Assembly: GCA_964016885.1 (NCBI GenBank)
Contig: OZ024756.1
Coordinates: forward strand, 34,906,001-34,970,000
Length of the DNA stretch: 64,000 nucleotides
Reading direction: 5' to 3'
DNA from: Eledone cirrhosa
Lineage: Eukaryota
A program made the position numbers and the translations under genes. The notes beneath the pieces are model-generated. The model did no database searches. It was not told the DNA's origin and was given only the letters and a program-made list of their open reading frames with translations. Below are positions 3,545-64,000 of this stretch, piece after piece (the stretch's first letter is position 1; every line of letters begins with the position of its first letter).

Positions 3545-15787
<12,243 letters not shown>

Positions 15788-19200: not shown

Positions 19201-19745
19201 AAAATAAAATAAGTCAAATATGTAAAATTTGGCTTCGTTTATTATAAATTATAATTTACAGCCAATAATGGCTGTCCCTGAAATATATATAGCAGTAAAT
19301 TATAATTTATAATAAACGAAGGAGGAATATGGCTTAGTGGTTAGAGCATTGGGCTTGCAATCGAAAGGTTGTGAGTTCAATTCTCAGACCGGGTGGTGTG
19401 TTGTTTCCTTGAGCAAGACACTTTATTTCACAGTTTACTCAGCTATAAAAATGAGATGATAGGGACTGGGGTCCCTATCATTCCACTGCAAAGTTGTCGT
19501 GGAGGTGCCACAGCAAAAAAAAAAAAGCACCCAGCCCACACTGTAAAGTGAACGTGTAGGCGCCACAGAAAAAAGCACCCACCACTCACTGTAAATGAGG
19601 TTGGTGTCAGAAAGGGCATCCAGCTGTAGAAATCAAGCCAGAATCAGTTCCCGTCCCACCCTTGCAAGCAGGGAAAAGCGGATGAAAAATGATGATGATG
19701 AAGCCAAATTTTACATATTTTACTTACTAATTTTATTTTATTTTA
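19201..19745. mobile_element. Fold-back element interrupted by SINE sequence (19321-19700)
   Basis: Left arm AAATATGTAAAATTTGGCTTCGTTTATTATAAATTATAATTTAC; right arm split into 19295-19321 and 19701-19745. Confidence 0.55.
19321..19700 (+). mobile_element. tRNA-derived SINE head plus RTE-tailed SINE fragment
   Basis: A box TGGCTTAGTGG, B box GAGTTCAATTC, CCTTGAGCAAGACAC core; 3' end ...AAAAATGATGATGAT. Confidence 0.7.
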
Positions 19746-34606: not shown

Positions 34607-35646
34607 GTAAGTTATCATTACTTCACTAAATGGTGCATCTTGTGACAATGATGTGGTATACAGTGAACCCCAATATATTACTGCTTATATATCTCATGAA
34701 CCCTGCAAAGCATAGAATACAAAAGTTCATGCCGTTGAGATTTGAACTCAGAGCATAGTTGAAGGACCAAATGGAGAGTATTGACAATACATCTCGAATG
34801 TCTGCATACTCCGCTCATATATATATATATATATGTGCGCACACACATACACGAGCTGGTAACGAAACCCTCACATGCATATACTTATTGAATCCGGTGA
34901 ATCGAACGAGATATTTTCAAGATCTATTGTCAATGATACCCGACTAATGATATAATAAAACATTTTCTCTAACGTTCTACTGTTGTTGTTGTTATCTTGC
35001 TGTGAGCTCCGATCAAGCAGAACTATGATGTAAGGCATTCCACCCGTAACCATCCTGTCTTCCTGGGCATCATACATCACGTTATCGGATGTTTTTCTTT
35101 CTTTCCTAATACACAAGGAAGCGTCTATTGAAGACAGATGATAATCCTGAAATACATGTATACACCGGTACTGAGCTGGCTATGATAGAATCATATCTTA
35201 CACGCACATTTCCTCACAAACAGATTTCATTTATCTGTTTTAGCTCGCTCCCTACCTCCACGTACGGGTCCGTGCACCCCTTTTAATTGCCCATCCGATG
35301 GCAAATATAACAGCAAGACAATATCTATGTTTATTAAATATAAACATATTGCATAGTGGTCTATATAAGCCTTTATTGTTTTTCTTTCTTTCCTAATACG
35401 CAAGGGAGCGTCTGTTGAAGACGAATGATAATCCTGAAATACATGTATACACCGGTACTGAGCTGGCTGTGATAGAATCGTATCTTAGAATAATTACAGC
35501 AAGACAATATCTATGTTTATTAAACATAAACATATTGCATACTTGTCTATATAAGTCTTTATCGTTATTTTTTCACAGCCTGAGGATGCAGTCCCATTAT
35601 TGTTAATCCACCGTGAAGACGAAAGAAACTTAAGGCTTTTTGGAAC

Positions 35647-35813
35647 ATGGATCAGCAAACAGCTCAATTGTTGTTTAAAGAAGGGGCTATTTTAATCTTT
35701 CTCGATGTTCCCCTGGGCACAGAGTTCGGTATTGATTACAACTGTTGGGATGTGGGACCCAAATTTAAGGGTGTCAAAATGATTCCGCCTGGAGTACATT
35801 TCATATATTACAG
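35647..35813 (+). CDS. AAR2: AAR2 coding exon 1
   Basis: [55 protein letters not shown]; donor AG|GTAGGT; acceptor at 35578. Confidence 0.93.
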
Positions 35814-38234
35814 GTAGGTAACCTCTTTAACTCTTTCATTACCAAACTGCCTGAAATCACCCCTTATTCTATGATACTAAGCTGTTTATATATTTTTTTT
35901 TTTTTAAACTATCAGAATGTTAAGTTATGTTCCAAACATTGGCTCTTTCCAAATTCTTGATTATTTTCATAACATGCAATACCACTCCCCTACCACACCA
36001 AAATACTACCATGCCATCTCACTATCATACCAACCTACTACCATACAATACTACAACAATACAGTACCACTATCATACCGTTCCACTATCAAACCAAACT
36101 GCTACCATACCATTCCATTATCACACCAAACTACCATGCCATACAAATGTCACATCAAACCACTACCTGTACCACCACCAACCGATATCACTACTATATT
36201 ATTCCACTATCACCAAACTATTTGCAGTGCCAAAAACAAAGAAGGACAAGTAGCACCCCGCACTGGGTTTTTTCACGAGTTCAAACAACGAGAAATTTTC
36301 TTGAGAAAATGGGACCCTCATACAGAAGGTAAGCTTTAAAGGTCTGCTTTATACCCTTCTGCCTGCTCCTGTTTTGGAATAAGTCAGGTGAAGCATGCCT
36401 TGTCTCCCAACCTTTCTCACTGTATTTTCTGTCTTTTTACCAATTCATCTATTTTTTTGTCTTATATATATCCGTCTGCCCATCTCCCTCTGCATATATA
36501 TATATATATATATATTATTCATTTTATTAAGGCTAAATATAGTGAGTCTTGTTACTCTGGAGTTTTGCCTGCTTATCACAAACATATATATAGCTGTCTT
36601 TTTTTCTCACTATGTAGATACACATATGTAATAAGACAAATATGCTATCTGTAAGACATCAAGTTCACACTAGTGTATACATATACATACACACACACAT
36701 GTATGTATGTGTCAATATTTGTCATGTCTTAACTTGTTTCCTATTGCAGACATTAAAGTGGAAGAAACCAACCCAGATGTTATGGAATGTTATGAAATAA
36801 ACAAGAAAGAATTAGACCAGTATTTAGCTCCTTATCCATATGACAAGTAAGTATTATAGAACTATATATGCTTTACCATTATATATATTATACACTCTTC
36901 TATATATACACTAACAAACTCCACCATTTCATACCTTACACACACCACACACTAATCTTCTATACACACATCCCAGTACTTCAATCTAACCCTCCTCCTG
37001 TCTATTTCCAGCTATATACAGGTTCTATTACCTTTGTCATGTTTCACTTTAACACATCTTGTACACACATGTACTCTTCTATATACGCTATTATACACAA
37101 TCAGACAGACCAGTGTGTATATATGCTACCGCACACCGCCATTACATATTTTATGCAGGCCATATAGAGTTCTTTATATATACACTACTAATACCTATCT
37201 TAGGCATTCTACATATAGTCTTCTAATTATACACTACATTACACATGATAGTCCTCTATATATACACTCCCATCACATATCTTACACACACCACACATTA
37301 TCCTCTAAATATGCTCTAACATTACATATATTACACACTTCACATACAGTCTTATATATATATATACTAACATACTCCACCATCACATACTCACCATGCA
37401 CTAATCTTCTATAAGCACACCCCACTATTTCAACCACCCAATACTTTAATCTGTCCGTCTATTTCCAGCTACAAGAAATGGGTGTCTCTAACAAACTACA
37501 TCACATGTGATTTACTTACCTTGCTACATGTAGAGGGAGTGAAGATATCATCTGTAACAGCCTTCTGTTCGGAGAAGAGTGACACTGTGTCGAGGGCAGC
37601 TGATCGGTTGAAGAACTCAGAACCAACCCGAGATGTGAGTCAAGAATGTCAGTCAGTGAAAGAAGCAGAATCCCACCTACCCAAACTACAGTTTGCCCCA
37701 CAGTCCAATGTTCAATACCACACTGTTCCTAAGAAGTACCCAACTGGAGCAAGTCCTGCAGAGGTCACTAAGTACAGCCTAGACTCCAGCTATGCTCTCA
37801 GCACAATGATTGAGTCCTGCTACAATCACAAGGAACTGTTACTGTTGGGGGAATTGCAGTTGTCATTTGTGTGTTTTATTGTTGGACAGGTTTATGATGG
37901 ATTCGAGCAATGGAAGAAGCTTGTCAGTGTTCTGTCGGCGGCACAGAGGGCCGTCATCACCTACTCAGACCTTTACATGCAGTATATTAAAGTTCTTCAT
38001 TTTCAGTTAAAGGAGATACCTGAAGACTTCTTTGTGGACATTATATCTCAACAAAATTTCCTCATTGATACACTTTATGAATTTTTCCTGAACATTGACA
38101 GCGAGGGCGTCAACGATGAGCTCAGGAAAAGGGGGGCAAAATTTAAGGCAAATTTAACAGAAACATTTAAGTGGGACTTCAGCACGGAACCTGATGAATA
38201 CGCCCCTGTTGTCGTTGAAATTGGGGCCACATAG
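35647..38234 (+). CDS. AAR2: AAR2 splicing factor (U5 snRNP assembly factor), spliced CDS span (4 coding exons, 376 aa)
   Basis: Exons 35647-35813, 36228-36328, 36750-36846, 37469-38234 join in phase (1131 nt). Motifs [62 protein letters not shown]. Confidence 0.95.
36228..36328 (+). CDS. AAR2: AAR2 coding exon 2
   Basis: [34 protein letters not shown]. Confidence 0.92.
36750..36846 (+). CDS. AAR2: AAR2 coding exon 3
   Basis: [32 protein letters not shown]. Confidence 0.92.
37469..38234 (+). CDS. AAR2: AAR2 last coding exon
   Basis: [13 protein letters not shown]...[29 protein letters not shown]...[13 protein letters not shown], stop TAG. Confidence 0.95.
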
Positions 38235-50906: not shown

Positions 50907-51150
50907 CTAGTTTCGTTTGACAAAAGTCTCTAGGATTTCCTCGGCCATCTTGAGATCGTTGCGTGCTACTCGGAGTGCATCAACGACTCGAACTTTGTCG
51001 TAGCCACGCGATACTAGGTCTTCCACAAACTCCTGGTTGATACTGTTGTATGAAGAACTCTCTGTGTTTTCCTTGTTGTTGTCCTGTCTTTCCCGCAATC
51101 GTTCTCGTTGGATCGGAACAGCTCCGGCCTTGTGATGGCACTCAGACTTT
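50907..51150 (-). CDS. CBL: Cbl last exon (UBA domain)
   Basis: ...[44 protein letters not shown]-stop resembles the Cbl UBA. Confidence 0.9.
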
Positions 51151-54100
51151 CTGTAACAACAACAACAACAACAACATTAGACGTGGTGGTGATGGTGGTG
51201 ATGATGATCATATAGATTTGGTGAAACAAAAAAACACCCATTTTAACCCTTTAGCATTTACATTGCTTTATATATACTATTATATTTTCAGGGTAAAGGC
51301 TTTACCTCACATAATATCAAATGATATTTATTTTGAGAGCAATACCGTAACATCAGTATTAGCAGCCAGTTACAGCTGGTTTGAGCAGAAAGAGGTGAGA
51401 GAATCTTGGTCGGATATGGCCAGTTTAAATGCTAAAGGGCTAAACAGCCATATCTTTCTGTTCAAACCGGCTGTAACTGGTCACTCATACTGATGTTAAG
51501 ATATTGTTCTCAAAATAAATAATATCAAATCTCATAGATTCAATATTATGTGAGATAAAACCTTTACTGTGAAAATATAATAGTATATATAGAGTAATGT
51601 AAATGTTAAGGAGTTAATGTACCAACTGCATTGTTATAACTATAACACATTTCAATGTTACTTACATTTTTGCTGGGACTTCCTCTGGTTTCGGTCTATG
51701 TTGTGGAATTGGTGGAGGGCATTCCATCTCCCCAGCCCTTAGTGGGGTCTTTTTAGAATTTCCTGCAATAGACAGGCACAGTGAATAACATTGTAGCTTA
51801 AACAATGACAGGGCCAGTGTCAATAGTGTGTGGTGGTGTGGCTGTGTGGTGAGGTGGTGGTATAGTGATGTGGTGTGGTTGGTGATGTGATAGTGTGGTG
51901 ATGTGGTTGTGTGATAGTGTGATGTGGTTGTGTGATAGTGTGGTAATGTGGTTGTGTGGTGTGGTTGTGTAAGAATGTATGGTGTGTCAGTACCGTTGTA
52001 TGGTAGTGAAGGTAGAGGCCCTGTAATGACAGGAGAGAATGTATGATGTGTTTGAACACCATGACATATGTTTGAAATGGTAAAGAGAATGTGTAATGAA
52101 GTTGTATTAAGGACCTTAGACAAGCTGAGTGTAAGTGAGAGGAGATGGCGTTACTATATAAGTCAGTTAGTGTATAAAGGACTGCACTGGTATCAACATG
52201 TAACACTATTTTAAGATTGGTAGGTGTGCAGCAGAGGTAGAGAGAATAACAAAAGATAAGACAGTAAAGATAAAACAACAGAGGATGTCAAGCCTCCAAT
52301 TTACTGCGACATGCAGAGAAGCTGCTGCTAGTATTGAGTGAATGTGCAGTTATATGCAGCATGCATGTAAGGAGACAGATCAAAGTATAGTTAGGTGAAC
52401 TGTTTTTCACAATGACAATAATAACTGTTTCTATTTTAGGCACAAGGCCAGCAATTTGAAGGGGAAAGGAAAGTCGATTAAATCGACCCCAGTATGTTAC
52501 TGGTGCTTTATTTTATCGGCCCTGATACTGCCAATCAAGTGTAAAACAAGAGATTAGGTAGATTGTCCTAAATATCTTTGAAAATTAGAAAATACACATC
52601 TTTTTATATGCATTCTATTAAAATTTTTTAATAAATACAAAATACACCTTTTAATTTGCATGCTATTAGTATTTTTTAATTAACACAAAATACAGTCCTT
52701 TCATATACGTGCTATTAAGTATTTTTTAATTAATACAAATTTATTTTTCTAGTTATAATTAGTATTTTTCATTGCAAAGGATTCTGCCATTATACATTAC
52801 ATCTCCCAGTCAACATTAAAAAGTGCAAGATTCCATGAAGGGGTTGATGGTCTATTGTAGTATACTGTTATCCCACTGTAACATGGGCTAACACATCTTT
52901 ATCATGCTGCAAGGATAATGTTACCACGGTAAGCCATCCCTATACTGGCTCACAATGCATTTGAGACAAACATACTTAGTAGTAGTAGTAGTAGTAGAAG
53001 CAGCAGCAGTAGTGGTAGTAGTAGCAGTTAAGACCGACACTATCTAGATCATATAGTCCAGACCTATACTAACTCTACATGCTGTGAAGATAGTAGTAGT
53101 GGTAGTAGAGTAGCAGTAGTGGTGGTGGTAGTAGAGTAGCAGTAGTGGTGGTGGTAGTAGTATCTAAGATTTATATCATGCTGTGAAAGAAATATACCAG
53201 CAGTTCCCAACCTATGCTCCAAAGAAATTAGTCCATGTGGAACTTGTTACACAGATCTCCCAAAAGTCTGTGATCCATGGGAAAAAAATCCTTTAAATAA
53301 ACAGGAGAGGGAGGGTATCCTTGGTGAAAATGGTTGGGAACCGCTGCAAAATATTATACAATACTACCATACCATGTGAGGGAAGCGGGGAAGACCAGGT
53401 CAGATCTATATGAGCTCTATCATGCTGATAAGCTAAGCCATGCCACATGTGATTATTGCTACACTAATTATACTTAACCCTAGCTTCTAGTGACCAATGT
53501 TACTACTACTACTACAACCACTACTACTACTAGGTAAGTCTCTAGTGACCAGTGGTATTACTACAGCCACTAATACTACTGGAACTACTACTACTACTAC
53601 ATAAGCTAAGCCTCCGGTGGTAAGTGGTGGTACTACCACCACCACTACTACTACTACTACCAGACATCACTACTGCTACTACTATGAGATAAGTCAAGCC
53701 TCAAATGACCATCATGACCACCACCACAACCGATACTACTACCACTACGGTAAGCCAACCTTCTCCTTAAGCAAACACTGCCAGTGTCCTCTTTTACAAA
53801 AGAGACAAAAAAAGGAACATGACAAGGACTGTGCTACAGTGATGTGACAGCGGCGGCAGCAGCAGTGGTTGGTGGTAGCGGTGGTGGTGGGGTTGGAATG
53901 GTGTGGTGGGAGTGGCTGAATGGATGGTGAAGCCTAGAGCCAATCGAAGCTGACGAAGAAGAAGTCTTACCTCCGGACATTGGGAAATTTATATAACTTG
54001 AACAGCCATCAGGGGCACCTCTTGCTATTGTGCAATGAGGTTTGTCATAGTTGTAGTCATGGTTGAGGTCAACAGAGAGTTCGTAACACAGCTGAGCATA

Positions 54101-57072
54101 GGAAATCCCTGAATTGCTGCCTAGTTACAGAAAGAAACGACACAGCTGAGTTAGTAATTTAGGACAGCATAGGAGTTAGAAAGGTGGTGGTGGGAGTGGC
54201 AGTCTACTCCAGAGTGGGAGGAGGTAGTAATGGTGGGAGTGGCAGTCTACTCCAAAATGGGAGGAAGAACAAGCTGGGATGGGGAGCAGGGAGGGCGGTT
54301 CACCCAGAGGTGGAAGTGAGAGGGAAAAGAGGGACAAGCAGATGTGGTCTGCCCATAAGTAGGGGTGATAGGGAGAGGAGCAACAAGAAGGTGGTCCACC
54401 TAGAAGTGGGTGTGCGAGGGAGAGGAGGTGCACCCAGAAATAGAAACAGGTCTACTCCTAATGGATAATTTTCCATTATAATTCCCAAGAGTTGGTCAAT
54501 TGGTGGACATTCCAAGGAATTGTTCTAGAGGCAGAGGGGAATATATGATGTTCATGCCTTTACCGAGAGTATTAGTGATGATGGAAATTAAGTTCATTGT
54601 CTGTGAACTAAACTGAGTTACACAGAGGCACAGCAAGTGGGGCACAAAATCACTTCTGGCTTATTGTGCAGGTTAATAAAGTTGGTAATGGAAGGGGCAC
54701 ACATACCAAAGGGCCCTGTATACCCTTGTTATACCCCTGGTCGCTGATTCAGCTCACAGCAAAGTTACCCCTACTCCATGGCTCTTGTTGCTAATGATGA
54801 TGACTGTGATGATAATGATGGTGATGGCAATGATGATAATGAGGATGACAATGATGGATAAACCACCAAGTAAGCTCAATATATAATCAGGTTTCCGTCC
54901 CCAGATGTAGCCTTTTCACTTTACTCCTGCTCCTAATATCTTCAAGAAAGGCATGAATGCCCTCACCTCTCATTGTTCAAACCCTATAAATCTTTGGTAT
55001 AAATAGGAACTTCATTACTTTCTCCTTAATGTTACCTGATGGCAGTAAAGATTGTTGTGGCACATTTTAGTTTAATGTGTGAGGCACAGATCCACACACA
55101 AAATAAATGGAAGTAATCTTTATCAAAATATTTTTTTAAATGCAAAAAATAAAAAATAATAATGTTCAACTTTTTATGTCCTGTACCACATAAAATAGCA
55201 TCAAAAATTGACATCATTAATACTACAAATTTTCATAAAGATCTGTCCACTAGTAGAGATACTATAAACATTTAAATTAACAAACCCATTTTTAGATATT
55301 ATCTACTAAAATAATTACAGGTCATTAAGAGTTAATTAATAAACTTACATATGTAACATTTAGAAAAAATGACTGCATCATATTAAAAATTCAAGACTTT
55401 ACTCTAATACTGCAAATATCCACAACAATCTGTCCACCAGTAAAGATACTATAAACATTTGAATAAACCAATTTTTAGATATTTTCTGCTCAATTATTGC
55501 AGGTTTGTTAAGAGTTAATTCACATTAGAGATAGTAAAATATCAAAAAATGCACTGGCACTCAAAGAGTTAATTTTCATTTTGGTGTTGGTTACATGAGA
55601 ACAGGTGCTGGATAGAGGTGGACATAGCAAGGGTTTCCTGCTCTCCAACTCTGGGTAGGAGGTCACTGCAGTTGGGGAACCGAGAAATTTCAAAGCACAC
55701 CAGGTGAGAGAAAATGTTTAATAAGTTTTTTTTAGATTATCAACCCTTTTGTTACTATATATATTTCTCATAAAAGACATTGACTATGGTTTTGAAATAA
55801 TTTTGAAAATAATCGAGAATCTACAAAGGTTCTTACATAGCATTATAATGGAAAGTTTTTAGATGAATATAAACACTTTAAAATATAGTTTTGTAATATA
55901 AAACCAGGGACAGTTCCAGGGGGTTTGATATCAAAAGGGTTAATATTGTTATCAACAGAGAGAGAGACAAGTGTGAAAGTTATATTTTGTATCATTAGGA
56001 AAACAGAAAAAAAAAAAAATCATGCGAAACGAGAGCGACAGATAACCTGAAATAGATAGATAGTAGGGGCGGGGGTCAGATGAAGCTTTAGTAAAACTAT
56101 GTGTGGTGTGTTCTGAGATGGTATGAATACAAGGATAGAAAGCTGGAGAAAATGAATAAATCTTCCTGAAATATAGGGCAGGTAAAGCATAGTTCAGCCA
56201 ATCCATACCCTATTAAGAGAGGTAAAGTAAAATCATTCCTGCCCAGAATTAAGACAGCTAAAACAAGGTTAAGCCAACCCTTACACTCTATTTTGATCTA
56301 AACATACTCAGTCTTGCTGAAACATAAGTGTTTTTTTGGTGCTTTACCTGGCAGTTTACATTTTACTGACTGATAACCCTGGCCACAGGTATACAACAAC
56401 ACAGGTGATAACATCAACACACAACAACAGAAAAGATACGTGTATATGTATGTGACTATTCAGTTATGTATGTACCAATAACGATTATATAGCAACCATG
56501 GGAGATAACTCAAATATGACTGGAGTTATCTCTTCTTTTTGTCATGACACGAAATATAAAAACACACAAAATATATGTATACACATATTTATTAGAATGC
56601 TGTTGAAGTGTGTATACATTTTTGGGATACCCTGTGTATGTATGTATGTGTGTGTGTATAAATATAAATATATATATACACACACACAGATAAATCTACC
56701 AATCAATGGTATGGTCTAACCGTATGTAGAAGATGTTGTGAAGCAAAGTTTAAAATACAAAATTTTCAACGATACAGAGTCAAAAATAGAAATATTAAAA
56801 CAATGAAATTAAACAAAAAACGGTTAATTCATAGTAAAAACATTGTAGAAATGTACCATAACTTTAATTTTCAGCTAATTATGATTATATATATATTTTT
56901 GCGAGCAATGAACCTTGATGTGGATTTAACCCCCAAAACTCTTTCCGAGCAATATAAGGAACACTTTTCATTATTTATGCCCTTGAGAAGCCCAACTGGG
57001 CGAAACGTACGTAGGTGCTGTTTTAAATAAACATGTTTTAACGGTCTATTCTCCGATTTTTTACTTTCCCAC

Positions 57073-57113
<41 letters not shown>

Positions 57114-60100
57114 CATAATTAGCTGAAAATTAAAGTTATGGTATATTTCTAGAATGTTTATATTGAATTACATTTAATTGATGTTCGTTCAATAAAACTT
57201 CTCTAAGTTTGGAAAATGTAGTGGAACTAATTAATATGTGTGTGTGTGTGTGTGTATTTGGGAAGTTTGCAAAAAATATTTGACTCAATATGAACATGAA
57301 CAGCACGAAACCTTTGGGTATGAAGAAATAATCTGGTTTACTAAAAGAAAATTAAACCAAACTCTTCACATCTTTAACAGCTTTTTTTACACCAAGTGTG
57401 TTACACGGAACATCACACACTAACTGGGTGTAAAAAAAGTTGAATGTGATTACATATGTGTGTGTGTGGTATGTGGATACCCATGTATGTATGTGTTTGT
57501 GAGGTTAAAGAAGGTGAAAAAAACAAAAAAAATCGAAAAGTGCGGTGAGAGTGTGACAGGCTTACCCGTAGTGTCGACTGTAGTGGCCAGCCGTTGTATG
57601 TTGTTGTGTAGAGAGTGTGGAGCTTTGTAGACTACAAGTGTGACATCATCCTCATCATCACGGGAGGGAGTTGGAGGAAGCTGGCGACGACTGAAATACA
57701 ACAGAACAGATTGACCACCATGTTGAATGTTGGACAGATGGAAGAGATATCGACTTGGCACACACATATGTAAGAAAGCCCATCATATATGTGCATGTGA
57801 AAACCCCCGTCCAAACCCATGCAAGCGTGGAACACGGACGTTAAACGTTGATGACATGACATGATGACATACATCACACATATGTGTGTGTGTATAATCA
57901 TCATCACCATTTTATGTCTGCTGTTCCATGCTTACAGGGGTTAGACGAGTCTTTCTCAGCACAATATCTCTCCACTCATTGCGTTCCTTCATCATCTCTT
58001 CTGTGAGCTTCAACAATTTGAAATCAGCTTTCATAACCTCCACCTAGGTCTTCTACAGCGGCTTCCTTGGTATTTCTTCACCCAACGATCATCCATGCAA
58101 ATCATATGTCTATACCATCAGTCTTCTCTCACACACTACATCTGATTCCTCTTATATCCAGTTTCTCTCTCAGTTCATCCATGCCTTGACATTCACACAC
58201 ATTAACACTGCACATCCATCAAAGCAGGCTTGCTTCATTTTCTCCAGCCTTCACATGTACGTTGCATTCAATATAACTAACTTTCTCATTATTAAGTTGG
58301 TATTTGGAACATAGCAGTGATTCTTACATAAAATTATGATGGAAGGTTTTTAGATAAATATAAATACTTAAAAATAAACAGCTTTTTATCATAAAACCAG
58401 TTTCAGGTGGATTGGCATCAAAGGGGTTGTTTTAGTGAAGGAGTGTTGCGGACAAACGATGGTTTAAACTTTTCATTGCTGAAAGTAAAGACAGGGCAAA
58501 GTGTGAGGGAAATGTTACCTGGGAGGTTTTGGTGAAGAATTTGGTGAATGTAAAGGAGATGATAGAGGTGATGGTCGGCGTGGCGGTACTGGAGGTGGTG
58601 CTACTTCTTTCTGGGAGGCATTAGGAGAGCCAAATGGGGATTTATCTCGATACTGGAACACAGAGAAACATAGAACAGGATTAGAACTGGAAACACATTA
58701 CCAGAAGTAAAGCAGTATTTAAACATGTTTTATATTGGAAATACTGATAAACTTGAGGGACACATCCTAGTTTTACCTTCTCTTTCACTCTCTCTCAATT
58801 TTTTCTTCCTTTTACTTTCTCAGTTATGTGAGAGTGTGTTTGTGTATAGTAATGTAAACATTTATTCTACACACACATAGGAAGATACAAATACATGTAC
58901 ATACATACATACAAAGGTGCGTGTGTGCACACACAGACACAGCTATGCACACATAAACATCCAGACATAGACAATAAGATTGTGAAACATTTACCTGGTC
59001 CTTTGGATGAACAACTAGAGCCTGTAAGTTAGATGTGCTCTGACAGGGGTCCTATAAATAGAGAAGATAAACAGTGTTTAATTTTGTTTTATTAAAATAG
59101 GGCGCAGCTACCTCTTGATATATCAAAGTGTATTCAAACAGGGCAGGGCTATCTTGATACTTATGACAGTGTTAATATTTTAAAACTGAGCCCACATTTT
59201 TAGGTCAGGGGACATTGAATAAATATAAGATTACACAAATACACATATCAGCTGTGTAGTGTTGTATTCCCTGTTGCTAGCCTTGTTAACAGTAAAGTGT
59301 GTAGAGTGTCACTTATTGTCAGCCAAGCTGACTGAGGTTGAAGACCAACAGACAAGAACTTAGAACACAATGTCAGTCAGAAATCTTTGAACCCATGACT
59401 TTGGCAAATAGTAATACAGCACTCTGACCTCAAACAATGGATTGTACATCACAACCAATGTCGCTACAATTAATATTATCACTATCACTGCCATCACCAC
59501 AAACACTACCATCATTACCATCACCACAAATAACCACCACCATCATCACAACCATAACTATTATCTTACCATTAACACAAACACCACCATCCCATCCATC
59601 AAAACCACCACCACCGCCACCACCACAACCATCACCACCACCACCACCATCATCACCACAACCATCATCACCACCACAGCCATCACCCCACCACCACACC
59701 AACCATCACCACCATCACCATCACAACAAACAGCACCACCATCATCATGTGACATTACTCCATAAGTCAAGATGTGTTCAATAACAAAATATCCATAATT
59801 AACACAAAATTAATTAGAAGACTTCCTTAATTGACGAGTCACCAAGTTAAGTGTTTATGTTGTATTCATCATCATCATTGATTAACATCTATCTTCCACG
59901 CTAGCATATATATGTGTATGTGTGAGTGTGTGAGTACGTAGTGTATGTATATATGTATGTGTATGTGCAGATATGTGAAATATATATGTGGTATTACATA
60001 CATGTGTACATAGGTATGTGTACATAGGTATGTATGTATATATGTGTACATAGTACATAAGAATATGGGATGAGTTGTGTGTGTAAATATATGTGTTTGT

Positions 60101-62984: not shown

Positions 62985-63642
62985 AACCATATTGATATTA
63001 ACCCACCCTAGACTAGCCTCTGGTTCTGAGGTGACTAAGATCTATTATAATTTCAAGTAAGAAACCTTTATTAAGTTATGCTCCAAACACCAGCTAAAAT
63101 AAATTTTTATATTTTATGAAATTCTTCATTAACTGTTGATTATCTTCAAATTTAATAGAAACACAACAGGTGGTTACTTTTGGTAGAAATATGGTCTTGA
63201 AAACATTAAGTTATTAATTCCACTGCAATGTAAATAGTGTTAAGTGAACTTGTGAGGTTTTAGAGTAATATTTTAGGTTATGTTGCAATGTAACTAGTGT
63301 TAGGTGAACTTGTGAGGTTTTAGAGTAATATTTTAGGTTATGTTGCAATGTAACTAGTGTTAGGTGAATTTGTGAGGTTTTAGAGTAAGTAATAAAACAA
63401 TTATAATACATGCCTGCCCTACCTGCCACTGGTTAAGACAAGGGGTACAAAGTAGGTGACCACAAGGTTCAATGCGGATGTCCTTATCATTTTCAGCACA
63501 TATTTTGCACAGCTGGAAAGTAGAGCCCATCTCACAGTAGAGTTCGTATTGCTCCTGAGTAACTTTTATATGGTCCTCCTGACAGTCCTGTACGAGGAAA
63601 CTTAAGTCTGGATTGATACTCCGACCATCGGGATAGAGGAAG
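50907..63642 (-). CDS. CBL: E3 ubiquitin ligase Cbl (CBL/CBL-B-like), 3' part; TKB-encoding exons lie beyond the window end
   Basis: Exons 63642-63423, 61356-61210, 59051-58995, 58652-58519, 57690-57566, 54120-53971, 51762-51666, 51150-50907 join in phase; linker [38 protein letters not shown]...[18 protein letters not shown]-terminal UBA. Confidence 0.93.
51247..51615. mobile_element. Two abutting piggyBac-like MITEs in inverted orientation
   Basis: 51247-51439 forward copy, 51440-51615 reverse copy. Confidence 0.8.
51666..51762 (-). CDS. CBL: Cbl penultimate exon
   Basis: [32 protein letters not shown]; phase 1-2. Confidence 0.82.
53198..53346. mobile_element. hAT-like MITE
   Basis: TIR CAGCAGTTCCCAACC / GGTTGGGAACCGCTG; 8-bp TSD not preserved. 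Confidence 0.55.
53971..54120 (-). CDS. CBL: Cbl tyrosine-motif exon
   Basis: 150 nt, phase 1-1; [50 protein letters not shown]. Confidence 0.78.
55743..55943. mobile_element. Second, older TTAA/CCC-terminated MITE family
   Basis: ACCCTTTTG...CAAAAGGGTTAA; related decayed copies near 7100-7330, 21620-21975, 32360-32600, 58270-58430, 63000-63215. Confidence 0.5.
56826..57169. mobile_element. Fold-back element, ~70-bp arms, enclosing a hammerhead motif
   Basis: CCATAACTTTAATTTTCAGCTAATTATGATTATATA / TATATAATCATAATTAGCTGAAAATTAAAGTTATGG. Confidence 0.6.
56971..57030 (+). ncRNA. Type I minimal hammerhead ribozyme motif (U3-A8 core variant)
   Basis: TTGAGAA (56983-89), stem II GCCC-AACT-GGGC, GAAA, stem III C-GTAC-G, GTA triplet ending at 57013, stem I GCCC/GG(T)GC plus TTATTTA/TAAATAA. 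Confidence 0.65.
57566..57690 (-). CDS. CBL: Cbl exon
   Basis: [42 protein letters not shown]; phase 2-1. Confidence 0.85.
57900..58270 (-). mobile_element. RTE LINE 3' remnant
   Basis: Decayed RTE C-terminal region and ATG-repeat tail; a related fragment VEGSRGRGRPRKTWAETVKVDIK is at 10930-11070 (+). Confidence 0.5.
58519..58652 (-). CDS. CBL: Cbl proline-rich exon
   Basis: [44 protein letters not shown]. Confidence 0.88.
58995..59051 (-). CDS. CBL: Cbl small internal exon
   Basis: 57 nt, phase 0-0, good acceptor and CAG|GTAAAT donor; [19 protein letters not shown]. Confidence 0.7.
60696..61128. repeat. (GGT/GAT)n trinucleotide-derived repeat
   Basis: Higher-order unit GGTGATGGTTAGGATGATGGTGAT; produces spurious poly-T/V ORFs. 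Confidence 0.9.
61210..61356 (-). CDS. CBL: Cbl exon: end of RING and acidic tail
   Basis: [49 protein letters not shown]. Confidence 0.95.
61588..61745 (+). mobile_element. SINE, dominant family, plus orientation
   Basis: GAGTTCAAATCC B box and central domain. Confidence 0.7.
62306..62406. mobile_element. Tc1/mariner-type MITE
   Basis: CAGGGTGTCCCAAAAAT...ATTTTTGGGGGACACTCTG|TA. Confidence 0.7.
63224..63387. repeat. 60-bp tandem repeat, about 2.7 copies
   Basis: TGCAATGTAACTAGTGTTAGGTGAACTTGTGAGGTTTTAGAGTAATATTTTAGGTTATGT. Confidence 0.9.
63423..63642 (-). CDS. CBL: Cbl exon: linker helix and first part of RING
   Basis: [73 protein letters not shown]. Confidence 0.96.
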
Positions 63643-64000
63643 CTACAATGTTAAACAGAAGTACTGTGGTTGTTAAGTGGTACCCTAATTAATTACAGAT
63701 ATATTAATTACACATATACATGGAGGATGTAAAGTTGAGCTCAGCAGCAGGTGCGCAATTGAGGTTTTCTATACGGGCCTCAGACCATTTAAAATGTTTA
63801 TATCTAAAATATATAATATAAATGTTGACCATTTAGGTGTTCTCTGTGGATTTCAGGCCTTTTCACATGTTTATTTGTAAGATATAATATACATGTGGGC
63901 CATTGAGGAGCTCTCTGTGGGCCTCAATATTTTTAAAAGTTTAAATGTAAGATATGATACAATATATAAGAGGTTATCTTGTCCTTGACACATACACACA

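What the first reader, a model, noticed from the sequence alone, without database searches (positions are those of the whole stretch)
56911..57030. Complete-looking hammerhead with compensatory U3-A8 core in a Cbl intron (antisense)
TTGAGAA replaces CTGANGA: positions 3 and 8 form a Watson-Crick tertiary pair in hammerheads, and both are changed together (C-G to U-A), which argues for selection on function. Stem II GCCC/GGGC, GAAA, palindromic ACGTACGT stem III, GUA site and a two-part stem I are present. A decayed second motif (CCTTGATGTGG-ATTTAA-CC..CAAAAC) lies just upstream at 56912-56940, compatible with a tandem arrangement. Scans requiring CTGA would miss it.
Basis: partly seen in the sequence, partly recalled or inferred. 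Interest (0 to 1): 0.75.

Follow-up and report, generated by a model that had tools for sequence, protein, structure and literature searches.

The report
Penelope retrotransposon stub with U-A hammerhead
This is a short, truncated copy of a young, abundant Penelope-type jumping gene whose tail carries a predicted self-cutting RNA motif with an already published U-A swap in its core; it likely does nothing for the Cbl gene, but a modest excess of genomic copies starting exactly at the predicted cut site hints that the RNA does sometimes cut in the cell.

Summary
The motif is real: a type I hammerhead at 56971-57030 (+) with core UUGAGAA (U3-A8), a 4-bp stem II, a palindromic stem III and a GUA site. 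It sits in a 181-nt stub (56894-57074) of a ~3.35-kb Penelope-like element of the Hydra clade, inserted at (TA)n antisense in a probable Cbl intron; 1,158 genomic places carry the same 33-mer. Natural U3-A8 cores are published (Perreault 2011; Cervera and de la Pena 2014). In this family 28 copies change position 3 or 8 alone and none both, so the swap is one inherited event; support for selection comes from other families (C3-G8 in 26 of 26 published Hydra rows; a second U3-A8 family here, 12,164 copies). The upstream 'decayed motif' is chance-level and gives no tandem partner. The best lead is 16 arms in 14 loci whose 5' end is exactly the predicted cut, including two head-to-head pairs, against about 4 loci per upstream position; downstream positions with microhomology reach similar counts, so this is suggestive only. 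The scan noted U3-A8 Penelope hammerheads in other genomes, and such cut-site copies in this genome, before. Cleavage is untested.

The parts
56894..57074 (+). 5'-truncated 181-nt stub of the pseudo-LTR (3' UTR) of a Hydra-clade Penelope-like element, ending at the family's short 3' end
   Evidence: 98-100% identical to the 40 best genomic matches; in L033 the hammerhead starts 300 nt after the stop of a GIY-YIG ORF; unit of ~3.35 kb in L032
56971..56982 (+). Hammerhead stem I, 5' strand (distal 56971-77, proximal 56979-82)
   Evidence: sequence; pair probabilities under 0.06 in the monomer ensemble
56983..56989 (+). Core U3 U4 G5 A6 G7 A8 A9 (U3-A8 in place of C3-G8)
56990..57001 (+). Stem II GCCC/GGGC with 4-nt loop
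   Evidence: pair probability 0.91; loop letters vary among diverged copies while the core stays
57002..57013 (+). G12 A13 A14, self-complementary stem III (57005-57012) and cleavage nucleotide A17 (57013)
   Evidence: palindrome duplex -9.8 kcal/mol, monomer stem III probability about 0
57013..57014 (+). Predicted cleavage bond; other genomic copies begin at 57014
   Evidence: 16 arms in 14 loci
57014..57030 (+). Hammerhead stem I, 3' strand
57075..57111 (.). (AT)n tract at the 3' junction, the family's target
56825..56896 (.). Host DNA left of the insertion, arm 1 of an inverted duplication
   Evidence: 92% over 72 columns with 57101-57170
57101..57170 (.). Inverted copy of the left flank, arm 2
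   Evidence: seen in 1 of 45 loci with both flanks
56913..56939 (+).
63363..63650 (-). Cbl RING-finger exon (open frame), upstream of the insertion
50910..51176 (-). UBA-like exon (open frame), probable Cbl 3' end, downstream of the insertion

Best explanation
The stretch is a 5'-truncated tail of a young Hydra-clade Penelope-like retrotransposon inserted at a TA repeat, and its U3-A8 hammerhead likely serves the parent element, predicted to cut tandem element transcripts slowly, as a dimer or with help from the element's protein, while this lone antisense copy is likely inert for Cbl. Shown: the motif, its place between a GIY-YIG stop codon and the next RT ORF, copy number, two fixed 3' ends (61 and about 225 nt after the cut site), head-to-head pairs, and copies starting at the cut site. 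Inferred: reverse transcription starts at those two ends and runs back towards the hammerhead; on an uncut or re-ligated RNA it passes through it (most copies, including this one); on a cut RNA it runs off at G1.1 (about 1-2% of copies). Identity as a PLE hammerhead about 0.95; catalytic activity in some context about 0.7; cut-site copies being true run-off products about 0.55.
For: Element; Hydra motifs RWK, DKT, CxCX5C, no CCHH, CxxC/CxH; RT and GIY-YIG look-alikes as leads. 1,158 exact 33-mers, control 0. One short and one long end in 19 of 21 distinct complete inverted pairs (hand count; ends), as in the two RT start sites of the anole element. U3-A8 kept in 22 of 26 copies under 88% identity while loop II matches at 35%. 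C3-G8 in 26 of 26 Hydra rows of Craig File S2; second U3-A8 family with other stems, 12,164 copies. 5' ends at 57014: 16 arms, 14 loci, plus 8 at 57013; upstream positions 56993-57008 average about 4 loci, maximum 9 in the fetched loci; negative-binomial P about 0.013 on hand-adjusted counts. L171 and L174 have both arms ending at 57014 with no shared letters; L152 and L178 within 1 nt.
Against: No cleavage or expression data. The active fold is not the lowest-energy fold as monomer (-8.1 to -9.3 against -16.0 kcal/mol) or dimer (-30.8 against -38.4). Downstream controls are denser: about 65 junctions in the 100 listed of 208 matches over 57015-57030, with about 6 at 57016 and 12 at 57021 before scaling by two (hand count), so 57014 is not an outlier on that side. 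Position 57005 has 12 arms in 9 loci. The partner-arm test was not significant: partner at or after the cut in 7 of 8 cut-site pairs against 13 of about 25 control pairs (hand count). In the anole element hammerhead mutants still insert in vitro and no reads ended at the cut. Pfam, NCBIfam and PDB gave no hit for the element's proteins, so clade assignment rests on motifs read by eye.
Confidence: 0.8

Rival explanations
1. The motif no longer cuts, or cutting is irrelevant: it is kept as a folded protein-binding or RT-pausing element, and copies start at 57014 because the RT stalls at the stem I/III junction or by ordinary truncation.
For: Active fold disfavoured; about 98% of copies read through the site; anole hammerhead mutants still insert; neighbouring positions have comparable junction counts.
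Against: All unpaired core letters and a Watson-Crick 3-8 pair are kept across diverged copies and families; U3-A8 ribozymes are reported active in vitro (passage); two pairs end at G1.1 on both arms without shared letters.
Confidence: 0.25
2. The hammerhead cuts efficiently, the unit RNA is re-ligated to a circle, and the circle is the main template; read-through copies come from circles and cut-site copies from unligated monomers.
For: Proposed by Cervera and de la Pena; more-than-unit partial tandems occur (L031, L032); a 124-nt tandem restarts at G1.1 in L180/L242.
Against: Uncut tandem transcripts explain the same copies; no RNA evidence; no copy ends at the cut site followed by (TA)n (0 matches).
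Confidence: 0.3
3. The motif is a host-adopted ribozyme acting on Cbl RNA, or works with the upstream 'decayed' motif as a local tandem.
For: It lies between Cbl exons.
Against: It is on the strand opposite to Cbl; the copy is 98-100% identical to its family, so recent; the upstream motif is chance-level; no second copy in the window.
Confidence: 0.03

Closest known systems
U3-A8 minimal hammerheads of Schistosoma mansoni Cercyon Penelope-like elements (Cervera and de la Pena 2014, PMC4209133; parts 1-2 of 4 read)
   Same: Same core swap, type I, in a pseudo-LTR, mostly single truncated copies, palindromic stem III for dimer folding.
   Different: Here stem II is 4 bp with no extra base after A9, stem III is an 8-nt palindrome, the family is young and uniform, and the element is Hydra-clade.
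Hydra-clade PLEs, e.g. Hydra-1_Obim (Craig et al. 2021, PMC8557442; passages, section 11, supplement parts 2 and 59 and searches read)
   Same: C-terminal GIY-YIG, RWK, DKT, CxCX5C, CxxC/CxH, no CCHH, (TA)n targets, hammerhead near the 3' end, A17 common, inverted 5'-truncated partners.
   Different: All 26 Hydra rows of File S2 have C3-G8; this unit is ~3.35 kb (published: generally under 3 kb) and its extension between the two 3' ends is ~164 nt (published tail 30-40 bp). Its hammerhead differs from that of Hydra-1_Obim.
Poseidon of Anolis (PAc) (Frangieh et al. 2024, PMC11167929; parts 1-2 of 4 read)
   Same: Two RT start sites giving two 3' ends; AT-rich targets; 3-8 pair needed for cutting.
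   Different: C3-G8 core; hammerhead overlaps the start codon there, while here it lies about 280 nt upstream of the first Met; the paper found no reads ending at the cut.
Natural U3-A8 hammerheads (Perreault et al. 2011, PMC3088659; passages read)
   Same: Covariation C3-G8 to U3-A8 seen in several natural examples and stated to be active in vitro.
   Different: The passages seen do not tie them to this element family.

Membership tests
Type I hammerhead ribozyme | Core letters with a Watson-Crick 3-8 pair, GAAA and NUH site | tested here: met
   U3-A8, G5, A6, A9, G12-A14, A15.1, U16.1, A17
Type I hammerhead ribozyme | Stem II with G10.1-C11.1 | tested here: met
   4 bp, probability 0.91
Type I hammerhead ribozyme | Stems I and III form in the active arrangement | tested here: inconclusive
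   Possible by pairing, but 7-8 kcal/mol above the lowest fold as monomer and as dimer
Type I hammerhead ribozyme | Match to an Rfam hammerhead model | tested here: not met
   No hit at gathering or E<=10; the models are built mainly on C3-G8 motifs (recalled)
Type I hammerhead ribozyme | Site-specific self-cleavage | not testable with these tools
   Only indirect: copies starting at G1.1
Penelope-like element | Single ORF with RT then GIY-YIG, flanked by pseudo-LTRs in partial tandems | tested here: met
   L031, L032, L037, all with stops or frameshifts; no intact copy was seen among 11 long loci
Penelope-like element | 5' truncation, inverted partner copies, two 3' ends | tested here: met
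Hydra clade | RWK and DKT motifs; CxCX5C linker; no CCHH; CxxC and CxH round the E and N residues | tested here: met
   Read by eye in translations
Hydra clade | (TA)n insertion preference | tested here: met
Hydra clade | Placement inside the clade in an RT tree | not tested
   Reference sequences were seen only in a supplement and were not brought into a computation
Naiad/Chlamys | N-terminal GIY-YIG | tested here: not met
   Endonuclease is C-terminal
Non-LTR retrozyme | Non-coding tandem monomers of a few hundred bases | tested here: not met
   Motif belongs to a coding 3.35-kb unit; window copy is single

The most novel reading that the evidence does not exclude
Copies of this element that begin exactly at the hammerhead cut site, on both arms in some head-to-head pairs, are fossils of germ-line self-cleavage by a natural U3-A8 hammerhead, giving a genome-only read-out of how often Penelope RNAs are cut before insertion (about 1-2% here) and direct access to the open question of what these ribozymes do.
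Probability: 0.5. Interest if true: 0.55.

Novelty: new member of a known kind. Interest (0 to 1): 0.33.

Why it matters
The motif itself is ordinary for its class. It does show that CUGA-based and Rfam scans miss at least 13,000 hammerhead copies in this one genome. The role of hammerheads in Penelope-like elements is called unclear in the papers read; if the excess of 5' ends at the cut site holds in a full count, any assembled genome could report on cleavage in vivo, and this young family with both pair types across its clade is a clean test case.

Tried and rejected
Rfam: no hammerhead hit. One search was a mis-specified pattern (it altered position 9, not 8) and is ignored; replace it. 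An early reading as Naiad or Nematis was dropped once the endonuclease proved C-terminal with Hydra motifs. A note that both 3' ends finish in the same four letters was wrong and is corrected. The idea that inverted duplication of host flanks is a family signature failed: 1 of 45 loci, plus one weak 19-nt match. 3' ends at the cut site followed by (TA)n: 0. Partner-arm test not significant. A second Hydra-type family (30 loci) showed no hammerhead in the 520 nt after its stop codon in the 14 rows printed; it shares a 10-letter word with the 'decayed motif', which chance can give. No RNA holder listed. Laying contigs and RAD reads gave no empty-site allele and no loose end at 57014 among the rows shown; 151 and 50 rows were not shown. 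Pfam, NCBIfam, PDB: no hits for element proteins. Przybilski and Hammann 2007 and Lunse et al. 2017 were not held; they are known only through citations and may bear on U3-A8 activity. Cervera 2014 supplements were not read and may list mollusc U3-A8 motifs.

Full report
Observation. The window reads, on the + strand, a stem I 5' strand (56971-56982), TTGAGAA (56983-89), GCCC-AACT-GGGC (56990-57001), GAAA, the palindrome ACGTACGT (57005-12), A17 (57013) and a stem I 3' strand. A full descriptor hits once in the window and never in 20 shuffles. Rfam misses it. The upstream 'decayed motif' lacks A9 and G12; a descriptor loose enough to take it hits 147 times in the window and 113-181 times in shuffles. 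Cbl lies on the minus strand, RING exon above and UBA-like exon below, so Cbl pre-mRNA would carry the reverse complement, which is no hammerhead.

What it belongs to. Bases 56894-57074 match a dispersed repeat at 98-100% (40 scored of 1,981 candidates); the 33-mer spanning the core occurs 1,158 times, reversed control 0. Longer copies place the motif 300 nt after the stop of a GIY-YIG ORF and about 280 nt before the first Met of an RT ORF; L032 has two hammerheads 3,335 nt apart. The proteins carry RWK, DKT, CxCX5C, no CCHH, and CxxC/CxH, the marks that Craig et al. give for the Hydra clade (compared by eye, no tree). Profile libraries gave no hit; the Atlas gave RT and GIY-YIG look-alikes as leads. 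None of the 11 long loci held an intact ORF. Copies end at two sites, 61 and about 225 nt after the predicted cut, followed by (TA)n; 19 of 21 distinct complete inverted pairs use one of each (hand count, 75 loci examined, 45 with both flanks, 2 duplicates). This matches the two RT start sites shown for the anole element. The window copy has the short end and no partner.

The 3-8 pair. In the family, 23 copies differ at position 3 (17 C, 4 A, 2 G) and all keep A8; 5 differ at position 8 and all keep U3; none is C3-G8. These are decay after insertion and say nothing on covariation. Among 26 fetched copies under 88% identity (some low only through deletions), 22 keep U3-A8, 3 are gapped and 1 is C3-A8; identity is 89% in the core, 35% in loop II and 74% in the 5' flank (stem III and 3' classes are inflated by my search anchors). 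Across families: 26 of 26 Hydra rows in Craig File S2 are C3-G8; several other motifs in the fetched loci are C3-G8; an unrelated-looking motif with the same two-ended, TA-targeted layout is U3-A8 in 12,164 exact copies, with 68 position-3 variants, all A8 (its ORF was not found). Natural U3-A8 is in print: Perreault 2011 (passages) and about 1,300 Schistosoma hits.

Folding. Stem II is stable (0.91), but the monomer prefers a hairpin that buries GAAA and the cut site (-16.0 against -8.1 to -9.3 kcal/mol); the palindrome gives an 8-bp duplex (-9.8), yet the double hammerhead (-30.8) is still above the best co-fold (-38.4). Slow, dimeric or protein-assisted cutting is therefore the expectation, in line.

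Copies that start at the cut. A pattern for copies lacking the sequence upstream of G1.1 gave 41 matches, 38 distinct rows after fetching. Sixteen arms in 14 loci begin at 57014 (13 events if L180 and L242 are one duplication), 8 at 57013 and 2 at 57012; the rest are mutated or deleted full copies. L171 and L174 are head-to-head pairs with both arms at 57014 and no shared letters; L152 and L178 are within 1 nt; L155, L165, L177 and L247 run from (TA)n straight into G1.1. Upstream control: 107 matches, 100 listed, 82 loci examined by script; 66 arms over 16 positions, maximum 12 arms in 9 loci at 57005, where the palindrome offers microhomology. I left out 18 listed rows: 4 were the second arm of a fetched locus, and the others I judged by eye; those that were junctions I added back by hand, and 7 matches were never listed. 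On these adjusted counts (mean 4.25) the negative-binomial P for 13 or more is 0.013. Against this, the downstream control (208 matches, 100 listed, 30 fetched) holds about 65 junctions per 100, with clusters at 57016 and 57021 as large as 57014 after scaling, though its anchor admits older subfamilies and those clusters have microhomology (hand count). The partner-arm test was not significant. I rate the excess as suggestive. If real it concerns 1-2% of copies; most, including the window copy, were made from uncut or re-ligated RNA. Searches for a printed report of such copies listed none by title or abstract start; Frangieh et al. looked in RNA reads and found none. The scan's own note e1-10310393 reports the same in this genome; I had noted the lead before seeing it and do not count it as support.

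Mechanism. Shown: anatomy, copy classes, junctions. Inferred: the endonuclease nicks (TA)n; RT primes at the two internal sites, once per DNA strand, and copies backwards; arms truncate and join; the hammerhead, paired with a second copy through its palindrome in a tandem transcript or an RNP, cuts a minority of RNAs. The window copy is one short arm. Its 70-nt inverted flank duplication could come from a template switch during repair, but it is rare (1 of 45) and its timing is unknown.

Verdict. A real hammerhead motif of a published variant in a new Hydra-clade family; no link to Cbl function; one testable lead on cleavage in vivo. Interest 0.33. The host species was not identified; runs coded as organisms B and C also hold the family. 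The bioRxiv paper (part 1 of 5 read) was used only as background on retrozymes.

Noticed in passing
window 56825-56896 and 57101-57170: Inverted duplication of about 70 nt of host DNA round the insertion, 92% alike; would form a hairpin in Cbl pre-mRNA. Found in 1 of 45 loci.
   Followed up: partly
L117-L151 (e.g. L122 centre): Second U3-A8 hammerhead family, 12,164 exact copies, short inverted pairs with two fixed 3' ends at (TA)n; parent ORF not found.
   Followed up: partly
L180, L242 (G000 C18): Three 124-nt tandem units each restarting at the predicted cut site (plus or minus 1 nt), present at two places.
   Followed up: partly
L033:339-2095 (-), L087-L116: Another abundant Hydra-type family (37% identity in the endonuclease) with no hammerhead seen in 520 nt after its stop codon.
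   Followed up: partly
L003, L038, L047, L057, L072, L077, L081: Further hammerhead-like motifs with C3-G8 cores from other repeat families, some with an (AT)n palindromic stem III.
   Followed up: no
window 19330-19387 (+): tRNA-like hit (Rfam 31 bits), probably a SINE head.
   Followed up: no
window 4797-7832 (-) and 35617-36336 (+): Exons of a V-ATPase A-like gene (Pfam ATP-synt_ab) and of AAR2 (Pfam AAR2_1st).
   Followed up: no
window 57361-57443: Short palindromic repeat (TTTTTTACACCAAGTG ... CTGGGTGTAAAAAA type), possibly a MITE; also laid by contigs of organisms B and C.
   Followed up: no
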